NCBI RefSeq assembly: GCF_003790525.1 | Contig: NZ_CP033635.1 | Reading direction: 5' to 3' (one strand) | From: Escherichia coli | Lineage (GTDB): Bacteria > Pseudomonadota > Gammaproteobacteria > Enterobacterales > Enterobacteriaceae | Length of the DNA: 64,000 bases | Shown here: piece after piece, positions 15,403 through 23,277 of the stretch | How positions within the stretch are numbered: the stretch's first letter is position 1 | Layout: every line of letters starts with the position of its first letter | Translations under genes and position numbers: made by a program | Notes under the pieces: model-generated | Databases searched by the model: none | What the model was told of the DNA's origin: nothing | What the model saw: only the letters and a program-made list of their open reading frames with translations

Positions 15403-17073
15403 ATGGATAATGCAGAACTCGCCATTGGTATCGATCTCGGTACTACCAATAGTTTAATTGCCGTCTGGAAAGACGGTGCCGCGCAATTAATTCCAAATAA
15501 GTTCGGTGAATATTTAACACCATCCATAATTAGCATGGATGAAAATAATCATATTTTAGTCGGAAAACCGGCTGTATCACGGCGTACTTCGCATCCGGAT
15601 AAAACGGCAGCGTTATTTAAACGTGCAATGGGCAGTAATACCAACTGGCGGTTAGGCAGCGACACATTTAACGCGCCAGAACTGTCCTCTTTGGTATTAC
15701 GCTCATTAAAAGAAGATGCCGAAGAATTTCTGCAACGTCCGATTAAAGATGTGGTGATCTCCGTTCCGGCTTATTTCAGCGATGAACAACGCAAGCATAC
15801 CCGTTTAGCAGCGGAGTTAGCCGGGTTAAATGCGGTACGCTTAATTAATGAACCCACAGCAGCTGCGATGGCATATGGCCTGCATACGCAACAAAATACC
15901 CGCTCGCTGGTTTTTGATCTCGGTGGCGGCACGTTTGACGTCACGGTGCTCGAATACGCCACGCCGGTGATTGAAGTTCACGCCTCCGCTGGCGACAACT
16001 TTCTTGGCGGCGAAGATTTTACTCATATGCTGGTGGATGAAGTTTTAAAACGCGCCGCAGTGGCTAAAAACATGCTCAACGAAAGTGAGCTGGCAGCCCT
16101 GTACACCAGCGTGGAAGCGGCAAAATGTAGCAATCAATTACCGCTGCAAATTAGCTGGCAGTATCAGGAAGAAACGCGTGAGTGCGAATTTTACGAGAAC
16201 GAACTGGAAGATTTGTGGTTGCCGCTGCTCAATCGCTTGCGAGTGCCGATTGAACAGGCGTTGCGCGATGCACGTCTGAAGCCAAGTCAAATCGACAGTC
16301 TGGTGCTGGTTGGCGGCGCATCACAAATGCCGCTGGTGCAGCGAATCGCCGTGCGTCTGTTTGGCAAATTACCGTATCAAAGTTACGATCCGAGCACCAT
16401 TGTCGCGCTGGGCGCAGCAATCCAGGCCGCCTGCCGCTTACGCAGTGAAGATATTGAAGAAGTGATCCTCACTGATATTTGCCCCTACTCCTTAGGTGTT
16501 GAAGTTAACCGCCAGGGCGTTTCCGGCATTTTCTCACCGATTATTGAACGAAATACCACTGTGCCGGTGTCGCGAGTAGAAACTTACTCGACCATGCACC
16601 CGGAGCAGGATTCAATAACGATTAATGTTTATCAGGGAGAAAATCACAAAGTTAAGAATAATATACTGGTTGAATCCTTTGATGTTCCGCTGAAGAAAAC
16701 CGGGGCTTATCAGTCTATTGATATTCGCTTTAGTTATGATATTAACGGATTGCTTGAAGTTGACGTGCTTCTGGAAGACGGCAGCGTTAAGTCCAGAGTC
16801 ATTAACCACAGCCCGGTAACGTTAAGTACCCAGCAAATTGAAGAGAGTCGGGCACGGTTATCCGCATTAAAAATTTATCCGCGCGATATGCTCATCAACC
16901 GTACCTTTAAAGCCAAACTGGAAGAGTTATGGGCGCGGGCGCTGGGTGACGAGCGAGAAGAGATTGGCCGGGTAATCACCGATTTTGATGCGGCGCTGCA
17001 ATCAAACGATATGGCCCGCGTCGATGAAGTTCGTCGACGGGCGAGCGATTATTTGGCCATTGAGATCCCTTAA
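15403..17073 (+). CDS. hscC: Hsp70-family chaperone HscC, 556 aa
   Basis: Hsp70 ATPase motifs IGIDLGTTNS and DLGGGTFD. Confidence 0.93.
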   Translation: MDNAELAIGIDLGTTNSLIAVWKDGAAQLIPNKFGEYLTPSIISMDENNHILVGKPAVSRRTSHPDKTAALFKRAMGSNTNWRLGSDTFNAPELSSLVLRSLKEDAEEFLQRPIKDVVISVPAYFSDEQRKHTRLAAELAGLNAVRLINEPTAAAMAYGLHTQQNTRSLVFDLGGGTFDVTVLEYATPVIEVHASAGDNFLGGEDFTHMLVDEVLKRAAVAKNMLNESELAALYTSVEAAKCSNQLPLQISWQYQEETRECEFYENELEDLWLPLLNRLRVPIEQALRDARLKPSQIDSLVLVGGASQMPLVQRIAVRLFGKLPYQSYDPSTIVALGAAIQAACRLRSEDIEEVILTDICPYSLGVEVNRQGVSGIFSPIIERNTTVPVSRVETYSTMHPEQDSITINVYQGENHKVKNNILVESFDVPLKKTGAYQSIDIRFSYDINGLLEVDVLLEDGSVKSRVINHSPVTLSTQQIEESRARLSALKIYPRDMLINRTFKAKLEELWARALGDEREEIGRVITDFDAALQSNDMARVDEVRRRASDYLAIEIP

Positions 17074-17183: not shown

Positions 17184-18635
17184 CTAACTGAACAACATCG
17201 CGATTTTACCGATCGCGTAACCTATCACCAGCACCGTTAAGCTGATTTTGATAATGCTGGTAATGCTCTGTGGTTTTTCATCCTCATCATTTTTTTCTTC
17301 GTGGTTTTCAGGTGTTGGCTCATCGACATCTTCATCCTCCGGCTCGAGTTTCACTTTCGTCAACAGCATCCGCGTGATAATGGCCTCTAATGGATGAGCA
17401 TCTCCACCTTCCAGCCTTGTATTAAGACGGGCCAGCATCTCTTGTTTCGGGAACGCTTCCAGCACAACCTGTTCCGCTACCCGATACAAATCCAGTAACG
17501 GTGAATCTTGTTCTGTCTCGCTACCGACTCTCGATTTCCACCATGCCCATGCTTTGCGCTTGAAGAATAACGACTCAATAAACGATTGACCTAACGGCGA
17601 TAATTTTCCGCTATGTAAAATTTCCGCCCATAACAGCCGCGTCCGGGCGCTCTCACCAGGAACATATTTCAACGGTTGACCTTGCGCATCTATCATGCTT
17701 CGCGCTTCGATAACCATCACTAATAACGCGAAATAATCCGGGCAATGACGCTTGCTCCACTGCAACAACAAATTATCAGCTTGTGTAGATGGGTAACTCT
17801 CCCGGTATGCGCAGAGATCGGCAAGCAGGCTTTCCCCCTCGCCACAGTACAACCGTTGCGCACACTGGTAATAACGGGCATCTTCGCTTTCTGGATTTTC
17901 TGCTTGCCACTGTTGGGCAACAGGAATAAGTTCCGCCATACCTGTTTTCACCGAGCTGTACCAGCGCAACAGTTTGCGATGTAACTTGACATCATCAGGA
18001 ATGAACCACGGACCTTCCATTGCCATAAACGCAGTGACATAGTCAGGATGGTAACGGCAGCAGCGTTCCAGCGCGAAGTAATACTCAACAGTCTGGTTCT
18101 GCAACGCGACGGGATATTCCAGAAGGCTAAGGAAATCGAAACAATCACCAGCCTGAATGGCCTCAAGAAAAGCCTCCCTTTCTTCCTCATCCATTCCTTC
18201 GCTGTCATTAAACGAATGCCAGTTCAAACGCTCTGCCAGCAAAGAAGCACAATTTAATGAAAGATATCGCGCTTCTATAGCGACTGCACACAGCGGCCAG
18301 CGTAATTGATCGACATCCTCCATGTTCCAGGTATTTAATTGCTGAATAAATTTCTGCCAGGCGGAGGGCTGAAAACGATCACTTTCAGAATCCAGTAATG
18401 CCCTGAATGCACGTAGTATTTCATGTTCAGCGGCGGCATCTTTTTCTTCATCATCTGCTTCCTCGACAGGATTTACCGCCAGTCGCAGCGCCTCTTCATA
18501 GGCCTGGCGTAATGCTTTAAACCCCTGCGGATCGGTTTCGGGATGACACAACGGTAAGCGAGCAAGATAAGCCTGGCGGATAATGTCTATTTGCGTCGTG
18601 CTTTCAATTTCGAGGATTTGCCAACATGTTTTCAT
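17184..18635 (-). CDS. djlC: J-domain-like co-chaperone of HscC, C-terminal membrane anchor, 483 aa
   Basis: N-terminal J-like segment with HPE at the HPD position; hydrophobic C-tail; start overlaps ybeU stop by 4 nt. Confidence 0.9.
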
Positions 18636-19339
18636 AGGTCGCTCACATCCTTAAGCGTTACCGGGCATTCAGGCTGGACAGTTAATGGCTGCCAGGGAAG
18701 CGTGGCATAGAAACGGTCGCTTCCCGCTGCCAGCTCTTCGAACATCCGACTCCCGGCGCTATCGTATTTGTACAGGGTTAGCGCCTCGCGTAGCGAAGCG
18801 TTGTCTTCGCACTGAGAAGATTGCCAGTAGAGACGCCCTAACGAATAGGCGGAAAAATAGTGCATCCAGCTGTGATAGTAATGGTGTGCTCGTATATAGA
18901 CGCGCGATTGCAGCCATAAACTCTCGTCTTCCGTCAGCCACTTGTTGAGCACACCAACCCGTGATAAAAAACCCATCCGCACATAATCCCAGGCTTTGAT
19001 TCCCCCTTCCCCACAACACATAGCGGTTTGGGCAACGAATTGGGTATAAATCAACCCTCTCTCCGAGCCGCCAGCAATTAATGCTTTCCACTCTTCAGGG
19101 GAAGAGCGATGCCATGTCAGATATAAGCCAGCTAAATCATTGGCATGACCATCATCGGTCATCTGATAAATAGTCTGAATTAAATCATCACGATTATTTA
19201 TTCCCCAGGATGATGAGAGATCGAATTCTTTTATCCCGGTATACATTTTTGGCGAGTCATGCGCGGGCTTGCAACCCTGATTAAGTATTTCCATGGGCGT
19301 AGAAAGCGCAAAAAGAAGATATTGTTCTTCCTTATTCAT
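18632..19339 (-). CDS. ybeU: DUF1266-family protein, 235 aa
   Basis: translation matches recalled YbeU; paralog of the ORF at 21429-22136. Confidence 0.88.
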
Positions 19340-19440
19340 TTGTTAATAATCCCTTATGTGCATTAACTGACTACTTTTTTATTATTGATGAGTATAAACT
19401 TGACGCTTTCAAAATAAAAAGAAAATCGAAGCATTCACTC

Positions 19441-19995
19441 ATGAATAAAAAATTAATGTATATATTCGCAATATTTATAGTTGCAGCAATAACCTGTATT
19501 AGCCAACCCAAGAAAACGACGTTGCGTGATAAAGCCATGGCGAATTATGCCTTTGATTATTTAAGCTCACCGGGCAGTCTTCCATTCACCACGGCAGCCA
19601 CGGAGCTTTCCGCGATTCATGGTCACTCAACGTCGCAATATCGCCTTGGAGAATTTTATCTTCATGGTAGCGACGGTAAACCACTGGATTATACACAGGC
19701 GAGATACTGGTATGAGCAATCAGCGGAACAGGAAAATCCACGCGCGCAAAGTAAACTGGGGTGGATCTACCTCAAAGGTCTGGGGGTCAAACCCGATACC
19801 CGTAAAGCAATTCTCTGGTATAAGGAAGCAGCTGAACAAGGGTATGCTCATGCTCAATATACTTTAGGTTTGATCTACAGAAACGGCTCAGGTATTAATG
19901 TTAACCATTATGAATCTCAAAAATGGTTAAAACTGGCCGCCAAACAACATTACAAAAACGCGGAAAGATTACTTGCCGGGCTTCCCGCACATTAA
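19441..19995 (+). CDS. ybeT: Sel1-repeat (TPR-like) protein with N-terminal signal/anchor, 184 aa
   Basis: repeated ~36-aa motifs such as AQ..LG..Y..G.GV and WY..AAEQG. Confidence 0.88.
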
Positions 19996-20004
19996 CGTCG
20001 ACTG

Positions 20005-21432
20005 TCACCCGAACAGATGGAGTATTTTCCCTATCAAACCGGCAAAGATAAAAATGTAGAAAATAATTTTGATGACGCCCAGGCAGCCCGGCCCACCATC
20101 GTCAACGGGCATCGACTGCGGTTGCGGCTCCGGTTCGACGGTTTGCTTCTCGGTAAAATTTGCCGCCTGAATTAATAATCGACGAATCATTAATGCTTCC
20201 AGTGGACAACGATCTTCTGCATCAAGGCGGCTGACGATCGGCATTAATGATTCTTCTGTCGGTTGGCTGGCCTGAACTAATTGTTTAGCAACTAAATATA
20301 ATGGCCATAAGGGATGTTCTGTATCACGCGTGAGTGAGATCCGCGGCTTACGTCCTTTGTGCAAAACCATCTCGACCAGAGAACGCCCCAGCGCAGAGAG
20401 TTTTTCATCACTGAGTATTTCGTATAAATGAAAACGCGTACGAGCGCTGTCACCAGGGACATAAAGTAGCGGTTTTCCCTGATCGTTAACCAGATCACGC
20501 GCTTCAATCATCATCACCACTAACGGGTAATAATCGACCCGATGCTGACGGCACCATTGCAACATTAAAGCATCCGCCTGGGTGGAGGGATACTCGCGCC
20601 AGTAGTCACAAAGTTCTGCCAGCAGGCTTTCGCCTTCTCCACAATAGACGCGTTGCGCGTATTCATAATAACGCGCATCTTCATTATCAGGTTCAGCTTC
20701 CCGCCACGACCGGGCGTAATCCAGAAGTTCGGGGATATCCAGACGGCTTGTGCTATACCAGCGGAGTAAATTTCTGTGCAAATTTGCATCATCGGGGATA
20801 ATCACTGCGCGATGTTGCGCTAAATACAATGTCAGCCATTCTGGATGCGATGACCAAATCCGAGCGAACATTTGGTAAAAATCAATGGTGTCATTTTGTA
20901 CGGCAACGGGCAGATGCAGAATGGTCTGGAAGTTAAAAACATTCCCCTTCGCAATGGCATATAAAAAGGATTCCAGTTCTTCTTCGTCTATTTCCCCGAC
21001 GTTTTCCTCCTGCAACCACCGCAATCTTTCTGCTAATAACACCACGCACTCGAAGGATAAATGGGCAGTGTTCATGGCTATTGTGCACAGCGACCAGCGT
21101 AATTCATCAATATCTTCCATCGAGCAATAATTTAATTGCTGAATGAATCGCTGCCAGGCAGAGGGCAGAAAACGTTCGCTATCAGAGGCGAGTAACGCAC
21201 GAAAGGCGAGCAGAATTTCATGTTCTGCAACTTCATGTTCTTCTGGTTGCCAAACAGATTTAGCAGGCGACTGCGCAATCCGTAGCGCGTCCTCATACGC
21301 CTGACGAAGTTGTTTAAAACCCTGCGGATCGGTTTCTGGATGAAAGGACGGTAACAGCGCCAGATAAGCGCGGCGGATAATATCGACGTCAGTCGTTTCC
21401 TCTATTTCGAGAATCTTCCAGCAATTTTTCAT
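20005..21432 (-). CDS. djlB: J-domain-like co-chaperone paralog, C-terminal membrane anchor, 475 aa
   Basis: paralog of djlC (~75% identity over the first 50 aa, by eye); HPE at the HPD position; hydrophobic C-tail. Confidence 0.9.
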
Positions 21433-22136
21433 AGGTCGCTCATATCCTTAAGCGTTTCCGGGCATGTGGGGTAGTCAGCCAGTGGTTGCCAGGGTAAGGT
21501 CGCGTAATATGCATCGTCACTGGCAAATAATTGATAAAACATATCATTGCCGGAATCGTCGTATTCTTTACGCGCTAAGAATTCACGTAATAAAGGCAGA
21601 TCATCATCCTCGGGAGACTGCCAATATTGCCGACCAAAGGTATAACCGGCAAAGTATTGCCGCCAGTGACTATAATAACGTAGAGCCCGTAGATGAATGC
21701 GCGACTGGATCCACAGGCTTTCTTCTTCACTCAACCAGTTATTAAGTACGCCCATTCGGCTTAAAAAACCCATCCGGACATAATCCCAGGCTTTAATTCC
21801 TCCCTCACCACAGCATTCGGCGGTGCTGGCGACAAATTGCGCATAAGCCTGACCTTGCTCATTTAATTCAGCAAGATAGTCACGCCATTCACATGGCGAA
21901 TAACGAAACCAGCAGTGATAAAACCCTGCCAACCGCGCGGCATGACCGTTATCAATCATTCGGTAAATTGTGCGCAGCAGGTCATCACGGTCATCAATTC
22001 TCCAGGAGGAAGAAAGGTCAAAAAAGCGTGTACCTAAATACATTTTGGGGGATGAATGCGAAGGTAAACAGCATTCATTGCGTATTTCCATCGGAGTGGA
22101 AAGTGCAAACAATATTTTTTGCGACTCCATGTCCAT
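21429..22136 (-). CDS. ybeR: DUF1266-family protein, 235 aa
   Basis: paralog of ybeU; start chosen at the ATG at 22136 with AAGGA 9 nt upstream (ORF extends in frame to 22163). Confidence 0.85.
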
Positions 22137-22299
22137 ATAATTCATCCTTAAATATTCATTCAATGAATATTAACCACGTTGCGAGGCTCATTTATTTATA
22201 CTTTTCTGACGCAACATAATACGCATAAAATAAGGCTTACGCAAAAATGGAACACATAAAAATATAATATGTTTTATATGCAACCATAAGGAAATGATA

Positions 22300-23277
22300 A
22301 TGATTTTTACGTCAAGTTGCTGCGATAATTTATCAATAGAAAAGATTGTTAAACGTGCTGAAAAAGGCGATAGCGAGGCTCAATATATTGTTGGGTTTTA
22401 TTATAATCGCGATAGCGCAATTGACTCTCCGGACGACGAAAAAGCCTTCTACTGGCTGAAGCTTGCCGCTGAACAAGGCCATTGTGAAGCACAATATTCC
22501 TTAGGGCGGAAATACTCCGAGGATAAAAGCCGTCATAAAGATAATGAGCAAGCCATCTTTTGGCTGAAAAAAGCTGCCCTACAAGGCCATACTTTCGCTT
22601 CCAACGCCCTTGGCTGGATACTGGATCGTGGAGAAGACCCCAACTATAAAGAAGCGGTTGCCTGGTATCAGATAGCCGCGGAGAGCGGAATGCCTTATGC
22701 GCAAAATAATCTTGGATGGATGTACAGAAATGGTAACGGAGTCGCACAAGACTATGCGCTGGCATTTTTCTGGTACAAACAAGCTGCATTACAAGGCCAT
22801 AGTTACGCGCAAGACAACCTGGCCGATCTCTATAAAGACGGAGAAGGCGTTGCTCAAAACAAGACACTCGCCGCATTCTGGTATTTGAAAAGCGCACAGC
22901 AGGGTAATCGGCATGCCCAGTTTCAAATTGCATGGGATTATAACGCTGGCGAAGGGGTGGACCAGGACTATAAGCAAGCGATGTACTGGTATCTGAAGGC
23001 TGCCGCTCAGGAAAGCGTCGGCGCTTACGTCAACATCGGTTATATGTATAAACATGGACAAGGCGTTGAGAAAGATTATCAGGCCGCCTTTGAATGGTTT
23101 ATGAAAGCCGCTGAATGCAATGACGCCACTGCCTGGTATAACCTGGCCATTATGTATCACTACGGAGAAGGAAGACCTGTCGATCTCCGACAGGCTCTCG
23201 ACCTGTATCGTAAAGTTCAGGCATCCGGTACCAGGGATGTCAGTCAAGAAATCCGTGAGATTGAAGATTTACTGTAA
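22300..23277 (+). CDS. ybeQ: Sel1-repeat protein, 325 aa
   Basis: seven or more Sel1-like repeats; start at ATG 22300 with AAGGA 7 nt upstream (alternative ATG at 22294). Confidence 0.88.
   Translation: MIFTSSCCDNLSIEKIVKRAEKGDSEAQYIVGFYYNRDSAIDSPDDEKAFYWLKLAAEQGHCEAQYSLGRKYSEDKSRHKDNEQAIFWLKKAALQGHTFASNALGWILDRGEDPNYKEAVAWYQIAAESGMPYAQNNLGWMYRNGNGVAQDYALAFFWYKQAALQGHSYAQDNLADLYKDGEGVAQNKTLAAFWYLKSAQQGNRHAQFQIAWDYNAGEGVDQDYKQAMYWYLKAAAQESVGAYVNIGYMYKHGQGVEKDYQAAFEWFMKAAECNDATAWYNLAIMYHYGEGRPVDLRQALDLYRKVQASGTRDVSQEIREIEDLL

What the first reader, a model, noticed from the sequence alone, without database searches (positions are those of the whole stretch)
18480..18635. J-like domains of DjlC and DjlB carry HPE instead of the canonical HPD tripeptide
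In both paralogs the position that aligns with the invariant HPD of DnaJ reads HPE ([10 protein letters not shown] in DjlC; [10 protein letters not shown] in DjlB, around nt 21334-21342). HPD is normally essential for stimulating Hsp70 ATPase, so a conserved D-to-E change in both copies suggests an altered or specialised interaction with HscC.
Basis: seen in the sequence. Interest (0 to 1): 0.4.

Follow-up and report, generated by a model that had tools for sequence, protein, structure and literature searches.

The report
Known HPE variant of J-domain motif
The two E. coli co-chaperones DjlC and DjlB do carry His-Pro-Glu where nearly all J-domains carry His-Pro-Asp, and this is a conserved hallmark of the J-proteins that partner the specialised Hsp70 HscC, but it has already been described in the literature.

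Summary
The window is E. coli SMS-3-5 (100% identity). DjlC (17184-18635, minus strand) reads [10 protein letters not shown], with HPE at aa 31-33 (nt 18537-18545). DjlB (20005-21432, minus strand) reads [10 protein letters not shown], with HPE at nt 21334-21342.

A profile of the family matches only solved J-domains (best E=1e-8). hhalign against E. coli DnaJ gives 96.7% probability with HPE placed on HPD. An AlphaFold model puts HPE in the loop between helices II and III.

HPE is present in all 113 close homologues that have an N-terminus, and in 89 of 101 non-redundant members of a much wider family. In 7 of 8 distant loci examined, an HscC-type Hsp70 lies next to the J-protein gene. The eighth locus was cut by a contig end.

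HscC keeps the DnaK residues that contact Asp35 (R167, Q378). It has lost the acidic residues D211, D477 and D481, and DjlC has lost the matching basic residues K26 and R27. Specialisation therefore shows mainly in the docking surface.

The HPE of DjlB and DjlC is stated explicitly in PMC10410713 (2023) and PMC13254874 (2026). The verdict is real, functional and ordinary: already known, low interest.

The parts
18537..18545 (-). HPE codons of DjlC (aa 31-33, CAT CCC GAA), at the position of the J-domain HPD motif
   Evidence: aligned to HPD; lies in the loop (aa 30-35) between helix II and helix III of the AF2 model
18474..18635 (-). J-like domain of DjlC, aa 1-54 (helix I 4-8, helix II 16-29, HPE loop, helix III 36-54)
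   Evidence: Pfam DnaJ 19.0 bits, below the 27.8-bit cut-off; family profile against PDB J-domains E=1e-8; AF2 pLDDT 87; Foldseek top hits are J-domains, 5nro_B TM 0.69 and rmsd 2.0 A
17184..18635 (-). djlC (ybeV), 483 aa: J-like domain, disordered acidic linker (about aa 55-70), all-helical middle domain (72-427), disordered linker (433-455), C-terminal helix
   Evidence: RefSeq 'co-chaperone DjlC'; AF2 full-length model, pLDDT 85; homologues carry PF27158 DjlB_C_2nd
17187..17261 (-). C-terminal hydrophobic helix of DjlC (about aa 459-483), the tail anchor
   Evidence: best 19-residue hydropathy window is aa 464-482; AF2 helix 458-482; membrane insertion reported in the literature (PMC8215388 citing Peschke 2018)
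21334..21342 (-). HPE codons of DjlB (aa 31-33, CAT CCA GAA)
21271..21432 (-). J-like domain of DjlB, aa 1-54; 41/54 residues identical to DjlC
   Evidence: Pfam DnaJ 21.8 bits, below the 27.8-bit cut-off
20005..21432 (-). djlB (ybeS), 475 aa, paralogue of djlC (49.7% identity over the full length)
15403..17073 (+). hscC (ybeW), 556-aa specialised Hsp70, the partner of DjlC. It keeps R146, Q341, L356 and P388 (DnaK R167, Q378, L391, P419). It lacks the DnaK loop 208-211 and has S444 and N448 in place of D477 and D481
   Evidence: Pfam HSP70 3e-117; alignment to DnaK of the same strain; RefSeq name
18632..19339 (-). ybeU, a DUF1266 protein; its stop codon overlaps the djlC start (ATGA), so the two are probably co-translated
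   Evidence: Pfam DUF1266 3.8e-45; overlap shown; the same pairing occurs in distant loci
21429..22136 (-). ybeR, a DUF1266 protein; its stop codon overlaps the djlB start (ATGA)
   Evidence: Pfam DUF1266 5.9e-45; RefSeq CDS limits; overlap shown

Best explanation
DjlC and DjlB are tail-anchored class C J-domain proteins. Their N-terminal 54 residues form a real but divergent J-domain in which the catalytic loop reads His-Pro-Glu instead of His-Pro-Asp.

HPE is not a local mutation of E. coli. It is the ancestral, selected state of a whole J-domain subfamily with the signature CWxILGIEPTxDxxxIRxAYxxxLPxxHPExDPxGFxxLRxAYE. The genes of this subfamily sit next to HscC-type Hsp70 genes in distant bacteria.

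The domain most likely works as a canonical J-domain does. Helices II and III dock on the nucleotide-binding domain / beta-subdomain interface of ATP-bound HscC, and the loop inserts there. By analogy with DnaJ, His31 would contact the interdomain linker (L356), Pro32 would contact P388, and the carboxylate of Glu33 would contact R146 and Q341, triggering ATP hydrolysis. This contact geometry is inferred, not shown.

The extra methylene of Glu is plausibly accommodated because the loop and the start of helix III are 3-6 residues shorter than in solved J-domains (6 shorter than DnaJ). The neighbourhood of R146 also differs in HscC, with D481 replaced by N and D477 by S/T.

Partner specificity appears to come mainly from the re-tuned electrostatic docking surface. 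DjlC lacks the helix II basic residues K26 and R27, and HscC lacks the D211 loop and D477. The Glu alone is less likely to decide specificity.
For: Shown here:
- The motif and its coordinates.
- J-domain homology with HPE in register with HPD.
- J-domain fold with HPE in the helix II-III loop.
- Invariance of H31, P32 and E33 in 47/47 full-length homologues down to 22% identity, and HPE in 113/113 close homologues and 89/101 non-redundant family members. This holds even though GAA to GAY is a single-base change.
- An HscC-type Hsp70 of 556-566 aa lies adjacent in 7 of 8 distant loci. For the five that I aligned, identity is 44-59% to HscC against 33-39% to DnaK, and all share the HscC-specific deletions.
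- The equivalents of R167, Q378, L391 and P419 are invariant in all 6 HscC-type proteins. The 208-211 loop is deleted, D477 is S/T and D481 is N in all 6.
- In DjlC, DnaJ K26 and R27 become L24 and A25, while R22, K48 and K51 are kept as R20, K40 and R43 (from the alignment).

From the literature:
- DjlC, but not DnaJ, CbpA or HscB, stimulates the HscC ATPase (PMC8215388 citing Kluck 2002).
- The DnaJ D35 contacts with R167 and Q378, and the charge pairs R22/K26/R27/K48/K51 with E206/D211/E217/D477 (PMC8215388 citing Kityk 2018).
- HPE 'seems the only replacement tolerated' (PMC13254874).
- About 1% of J-domains carry HPE, DjlB and DjlC among them (PMC10410713).
Against: - Single-sequence Pfam DnaJ scores (19.0 and 21.8 bits) are below the 27.8-bit gathering cut-off.
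- No canonical helix IV was detected. Profile alignments stop at helix III, and residues 58-68 are disordered in the model.
- No complex structure or mutant data for Glu33 were available to me. The Glu33 contact with R146 and Q341 is an analogy.
- Because the residues contacting D35 are unchanged in HscC, the D-to-E change may contribute little to specificity.
- Family members with RPD, NPE, KPE or PPE also sit next to HscC-type Hsp70s. The tripeptide is therefore not absolutely constrained in this pairing.
Confidence: 0.8

Rival explanations
1. The D-to-E change is a frozen, near-neutral founder substitution. Glu simply substitutes for Asp, and all specificity for HscC lies elsewhere, in the helix II charges and the HscC loop deletion.
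For: R167 and Q378 equivalents are unchanged in all HscC-type Hsp70s. Clear reciprocal changes exist in the docking surface: K26 and R27 are lost, the D211 loop is deleted and D477 is S/T. A family member with RPD is still coupled to an HscC-type Hsp70. D to E is chemically conservative.
Against: E33 is invariant over sequences that have diverged to 22-28% identity, although one base change gives Asp. In canonical J-domains the reverse bias is equally strong, with only about 1% HPE (PMC10410713). This implies that the one-carbon difference matters in each context.
Confidence: 0.3
2. The HPE domains are degenerate 'J-like' (type IV) domains that no longer activate an Hsp70 and serve only as binding or scaffold modules.
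For: Pfam DnaJ scores are below threshold. No helix IV was detected. The review PMC13254874 notes that many J-proteins with altered HPD are presumed non-functional.
Against: The literature reports that DjlC stimulates the HscC ATPase (PMC8215388), and PMC13254874 singles out HPE as the tolerated replacement. H31, P32 and E33 are strictly conserved, and so is linkage to an Hsp70 gene. This is not what a decaying motif looks like.
Confidence: 0.04
3. Alignment artefact: the true HPD lies elsewhere and HPE at aa 31-33 is coincidental.
For: DjlC does contain an HPD, at aa 196-198.
Against: That HPD is in the helical middle domain. Its columns are variable (13 H of 47; 4 D of 47), and DjlB reads HPE there. 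Three independent alignments (phmmer, profile hmmsearch, hhalign) and the AF2 and Foldseek results all put aa 31-33 on the HPD loop.
Confidence: 0.01

Closest known systems
DjlB/DjlC (YbeS/YbeV) J-domain proteins of E. coli K-12, partners of HscC (Kluck et al. 2002; reviewed in PMC8215388 and PMC13254874)
   Same: These are the same genes in another E. coli strain. RefSeq names them djlC and djlB. The cluster representative P0001 is 95% identical. They share the HPE motif, the tail anchor and the neighbourhood with hscC.
   Different: Nothing of substance. Strain SMS-3-5 differs from the cluster representative by a few residues outside the motif.
Canonical J-domain of DnaJ bound to DnaK (PDB 5NRO)
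   Same: Helix I-II-III architecture with the tripeptide in the II-III loop. Foldseek gives TM 0.69 and rmsd 2.0 A over 56 columns. His and Pro are conserved, as are R22, K48 and K51 (as R20, K40, R43) and the F47 and AYE positions.
   Different: Asp35 is replaced by Glu. There is a 6-residue deletion between the loop and helix III. K26 and R27 are replaced by Leu and Ala. No recognisable helix IV was found. Pfam scores are below threshold.
HscB (Hsc20), the dedicated J-protein of HscA
   Same: Another class C J-protein that co-evolved with a specialised Hsp70 and does not cross-react with it (PMC8215388).
   Different: According to my own knowledge of its sequence, HscB keeps HPD. I did not test this here. 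Its C-terminal domain binds IscU, and it is soluble rather than tail-anchored.
Other HPE-bearing J-domains (about 2,900, roughly 1% of all J-domains; PMC10410713)
   Same: The same D-to-E variant. About 1,700 are prokaryotic, many without another annotated domain, 'such as DjlB and DjlC'.
   Different: The eukaryotic HPE set is mostly fused to sodium/calcium-exchanger domains and is unrelated in architecture.

Membership tests
J-domain (Pfam PF00226 DnaJ) | Significant sequence match to the J-domain profile | tested here: met
   The single sequences are below Pfam's cut-off (19.0 and 21.8 bits against 27.8; E=1.5e-3 and 2.1e-4). The 83-sequence family profile hits only J-domains in the PDB (44 sequences, best E=1e-8). 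hhalign against the DnaJ J-domain gives 96.7% probability and E=3.3e-10. Some homologues carry a precomputed PF00226 hit.
J-domain (Pfam PF00226 DnaJ) | Fold: antiparallel helices II and III joined by a loop that carries the tripeptide, preceded by the short helix I | tested here: met
   The AF2 model of aa 1-60 has pLDDT 87, with H4-8, H16-29, loop 30-35 and H36-54. The same elements appear in the full-length model. Foldseek top hits are almost all J-domains (probability 0.96-1.00, TM 0.62-0.76), but E-values are weak (at least 0.06) because the domain is only 60 aa.
J-domain (Pfam PF00226 DnaJ) | Invariant His-Pro-Asp tripeptide | tested here: not met
   The tripeptide reads His-Pro-Glu in both paralogues and in 47/47 full-length homologues. 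The literature treats HPE as the one tolerated variant (PMC13254874).
J-domain (Pfam PF00226 DnaJ) | Helix IV following helix III | tested here: inconclusive
   Profile alignments end at helix III. In the full-length model, residues 58-68 are disordered (pLDDT below 50) and the next helices are a short H62-65 and then H72-82. I could not establish whether H72-82 packs as a helix IV.
J-domain (Pfam PF00226 DnaJ) | Stimulates the ATPase of a partner Hsp70 | not testable with these tools
   Reported for DjlC with HscC (PMC8215388 citing Kluck 2002). For DjlB it is assumed by homology in that review.
DjlB/DjlC family (HscC-associated, HPE-type J-proteins; Pfam PF27158 DjlB_C_2nd) | N-terminal HPE-type J-domain followed by the DjlB_C helical domain | tested here: met
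   Homologues down to about 25% identity carry a precomputed PF27158 hit. The full-length alignment A2 covers both domains. PF27158 was not in the Pfam copy I could scan directly.
DjlB/DjlC family (HscC-associated, HPE-type J-proteins; Pfam PF27158 DjlB_C_2nd) | Gene adjacent to an HscC-type Hsp70 gene | tested here: met
   In the window, hscC and djlC are convergent and 110 nt apart. An Hsp70 gene of 556-566 aa is adjacent in distant loci L002, L003, L004, L005, L008, L010 and L011. P0266 was uninformative because of a contig edge.
HscC subfamily of Hsp70 | Deletion of DnaK residues about 76-101, deletion of the 208-211 loop, and an insertion in SBD-beta loop L1,2 (as described in PMC8215388) | tested here: met
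   The alignment of HscC and five neighbour Hsp70s to DnaK of the same strain shows all three features in all six proteins.

The most novel reading that the evidence does not exclude
The HPE-type J-domain, an HscC-type Hsp70 and a DUF1266 protein may form an ancient, obligate three-component chaperone module. Their genes have overlapping stop and start codons in Proteobacteria and in loci whose neighbouring genes look typical of Firmicutes. In this reading the J-domain trigger has been re-engineered. Glu would be co-adapted with the HscC-specific D481N and D477S/T changes around R167. In one clade even the 'essential' His is replaced (NPE) while the Hsp70 linkage is kept. That would mean HscC-type Hsp70s are activated by rules different from the canonical HPD mechanism, with DUF1266 as an undescribed third partner.
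Probability: 0.2. Interest if true: 0.5.

Novelty: already known. Interest (0 to 1): 0.12.

Why it matters
HPD is the most conserved and mechanistically best understood element of Hsp70 co-chaperones. A natural, functional HPE variant tied to one Hsp70 subfamily is a useful handle on how J-domain and Hsp70 pairs achieve orthogonality in one cell. That point is already made in the chaperone literature for exactly these proteins, so this finding adds no new biology. What this analysis adds is modest. It confirms from sequence that HPE is invariant across a broad family linked to HscC. It also shows that the residues contacted by the acidic side chain are unchanged in HscC, while the electrostatic docking residues have changed on both partners.

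Tried and rejected
- Kluck et al. 2002 (JBC), the primary paper, is not held in the library. Its results are cited only through reviews.
- NCBIfam has no model for DjlB, DjlC or the DUF1266 proteins.
- PADLOC gave no defence-system assignment for any gene of the locus; the only hit was a 19-bit chance-level match of YbeQ.
- A single-sequence phmmer search of the DjlC J-region against the PDB gave only E of about 1, although the register was correct. A family profile was needed.
- A Foldseek search of the full-length DjlC model gave only weak TPR/alpha-solenoid matches (E at least 0.1, TM about 0.2). The middle domain remains unassigned beyond 'helical repeat-like'.
- The context of P0266 was uninformative. 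Its contig ends about 630 nt upstream of the gene and no DNA was returned.
- I did not scan genome contigs from the HscC side. The most conserved Hsp70 peptides would retrieve mainly DnaK and HscA, so the cost was not justified for a known feature.
- I did not attempt a fused-chain HscC-J-domain prediction. The structure tool returns no coordinates, so contacts could not be read out.
- The idea that the HPD at DjlC aa 196-198 is the real motif was rejected.

Full report
**Identity of the region.** The 8.1-kb stretch around the finding is 100% identical to E. coli SMS-3-5 (NC_010498.1) and 95-96% identical to most other complete E. coli genomes. RefSeq annotates these genes, given here in window coordinates:

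| Gene | Coordinates | Strand |
|---|---|---|
| hscC | 15403-17073 | + |
| djlC | 17184-18635 | - |
| ybeU (DUF1266) | 18632-19339 | - |
| ybeT (Sel1/TPR) | 19441-19995 | + |
| djlB | 20005-21432 | - |
| ybeR (DUF1266) | 21429-22136 | - |
| ybeQ (Sel1) | 22300-23277 | + |

**Check of the observation.** The finding's interval, 18480-18635 on the minus strand, translates to [52 protein letters not shown], the first 52 residues of DjlC. HPE is aa 31-33, nt 18537-18545, codons CAT CCC GAA. DjlB begins [38 protein letters not shown]. Both quoted strings are correct.

**Is HPE really at the HPD position?** On their own the two proteins match Pfam DnaJ only weakly: 19.0 and 21.8 bits against a cut-off of 27.8, covering aa 4-47. 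A single-sequence search of the PDB gives E of about 1, though it already pairs HPE with the HPD of DNAJB2.
- I built an alignment of 83 non-redundant N-terminal domains of the family (A1). Its profile hits 44 PDB sequences, every one a J-domain. The best is DNAJA1 at E=1e-8, and E. coli DnaJ in the DnaK complex (5nro_B) scores 7e-8, with hPE on HPD.
- hhalign of A1 against the DnaJ J-domain of the same strain gives 96.7% probability and E=3.3e-10. It pairs H31, P32 and E33 with H33, P34 and D35, and shows a 6-residue gap before helix III.
- AlphaFold2 on A1 (pLDDT 87) gives helix I at 4-8, helix II at 16-29, a loop at 30-35 (CHPETD) and helix III at 36-54.
- Foldseek returns almost only J-domains, with probability up to 1.00. 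For 5nro_B the TM-score is 0.69 and the rmsd 2.0 A. E-values are weak because the domain is so short.
DjlC does have an HPD at aa 196-198, but it lies in the helical middle domain, its columns are variable, and DjlB reads HPE there.

**Conservation.**
- Of the 120 closest proteins, 113 include the N-terminus. These come from Escherichia, Salmonella, Citrobacter, Enterobacter and Pseudocitrobacter and go down to about 40% identity. All 113 have HPE at aa 31-33.
- An exhaustive search of 1.84 billion cluster representatives found 1,582 proteins at E of 1e-3 or better. They include many 800-1,240-aa proteins that share only the N-terminal third.
- Among 101 non-redundant N-terminal domains the tripeptide is HPE in 89, NPE in 8, RPD in 2, KPE in 1 and PPE in 1.
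- In a full-length alignment of 47 proteins, down to 22% identity, H31, P32 and E33 are invariant.
- Asp is one base away from GAA, so this invariance indicates selection for Glu.
- The family signature is CWxILGIEPTxDxxxIRxAYxxxLPxxHPExDPxGFxxLRxAYExA.

**Link to HscC.** I looked up the genomic context of eight distant members.
- Seven have an Hsp70 gene of 556-566 aa directly adjacent: L002, L003, L004, L005, L008, L010 and L011. The eighth was cut by a contig end.
- The five neighbour Hsp70s I aligned are 44-59% identical to HscC and 33-39% identical to DnaK.
- They share the HscC hallmarks: deletion of DnaK 76-101, deletion of the 208-211 loop, and an insertion in loop L1,2. These hallmarks are described in PMC8215388.
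- The HPE-type J-domain is therefore a marker of HscC-type partnerships across distant bacteria.

**How it most likely works.** In the DnaK-DnaJ structure, H33 bonds to the backbone of L391, P34 packs on P419, and D35 bonds to R167 and Q378. R22, K26, R27, K48 and K51 pair with E206, D211, E217 and D477 (PMC8215388 citing Kityk 2018).
- Aligning HscC with DnaK of the same strain shows several residues conserved: R146 (= R167), Q341 (= Q378), L356 (= L391), P388 (= P419), N149, T152, E184 and E191. The D208-D211 loop is absent, D477 is S444 and D481 is N448. The same pattern holds in all six HscC-type proteins.
- On the J side, DnaJ R22, K48 and K51 are kept as R20, K40 and R43, but K26 and R27 are L24 and A25.
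- My reading is that the HPE loop acts like HPD, with the Glu carboxylate reaching R146 and Q341. The shorter loop and helix III start, and the changed surroundings of R146 (N448 in place of D481), make the longer side chain optimal. This is inference from these alignments.
- Partner discrimination would then rest largely on the reciprocal loss of charges in the docking surface.
- The published biochemistry fits this. Only DjlC, not DnaJ, CbpA or HscB, stimulates HscC (PMC8215388), and the DjlC J-domain cannot replace that of DnaJ (PMC1906734).
- No mutant data for Glu33 were available to me, so its causal role remains untested.

**Architecture of the whole protein.** The full-length AF2 model (pLDDT 85) shows these elements:
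- the J-domain at aa 1-54;
- a disordered acidic linker, with pLDDT below 50 at aa 58-68;
- an all-helical domain at aa 72-427;
- a disordered stretch at aa 433-455;
- a terminal helix at aa 458-482.

The terminal helix coincides with the hydrophobic tail and with the reported tail-anchor. The helical domain has no significant match among solved structures; the only hits are weak TPR-like ones. No canonical helix IV could be identified.

**Comparison with what is known, and novelty.**
- PMC10410713 (PNAS 2023) reports 2,921 J-domains with HPE, about 1% of all, and names DjlB and DjlC as examples.
- The deletion of the D211 loop in HscC is also described in PMC8215388.

The finding is therefore correct and its interpretation reasonable, but it is textbook-level knowledge for the chaperone field. 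I rate it already known, with low interest.

**Side observations not followed to a conclusion.** These are listed separately under 'noticed in passing':
- the DUF1266 gene is conserved next to the J-protein gene and probably translationally coupled to it;
- NPE, RPD and KPE variants remain linked to HscC-type Hsp70s;
- the whole module is duplicated in the window.

Noticed in passing
window 18632-18635 and 21429-21432; L002 7297-8001/8001-10655; L003 7306-8004/8001-10688; L008 6304-8004/8001-9365/9362-10069; L010 4228-5004/5001-7784: A DUF1266 gene is joined to the HPE-type J-protein gene by a 1-4-nt stop/start overlap in E. coli (ybeU-djlC and ybeR-djlB, both ATGA) and in four distant loci. 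In L008 the order is Hsp70, J, DUF1266, each pair overlapping by 4 nt. This suggests a conserved three-component module. Only one paper in the library mentions DUF1266 at all.
   Followed up: partly
proteins P0244, P0234, P0236, P0243, P0254, P0255, P0260, P0261 (NPE); P0212, P0241 (RPD); P0237 (KPE); P0218 (PPE); loci L005, L008, L011: Within the HPE family some members replace the 'essential' His (NPE, RPD, KPE). The three I checked (P0244, P0212, P0237) still lie next to an HscC-type Hsp70 of 563-566 aa. H33Q inactivates canonical J-domains, so either these are inactive or HscC-type Hsp70s tolerate more variation in the trigger loop.
   Followed up: partly
window 17184-19995 versus 20005-23277: The module DUF1266 + J-protein + divergently transcribed Sel1-repeat protein is present twice in tandem: ybeU-djlC/ybeT and ybeR-djlB/ybeQ. 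DjlC and DjlB are 49.7% identical and YbeU and YbeR 60.9%. Only 3,148 of the 5,425 matching E. coli genomes (5,426 searched) hold at least 80% of the 8.1-kb region. In JJ1886, for example, the match covers only 65% of the region and no djlB or ybeR is listed under it.
   Followed up: no
HscC aa 444 and 448 (window about 16732-16746) and the neighbour Hsp70s in L002-L008: DnaK D481 is described as clamping R167/I168 in the ATP state (PMC8215388). It is Asn in all six HscC-type Hsp70s. D477 is Ser or Thr, and K414 is Arg. This may be a co-variation with the HPE loop; I did not analyse it further.
   Followed up: no
window 17640-18419 (DjlC aa 72-427): The large helical middle domain of DjlC (Pfam PF27158 in homologues) is confidently modelled but has no significant match among solved structures, only weak TPR/solenoid hits. 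In distant relatives it is followed by long TPR-rich or DUF805-containing extensions.
   Followed up: partly
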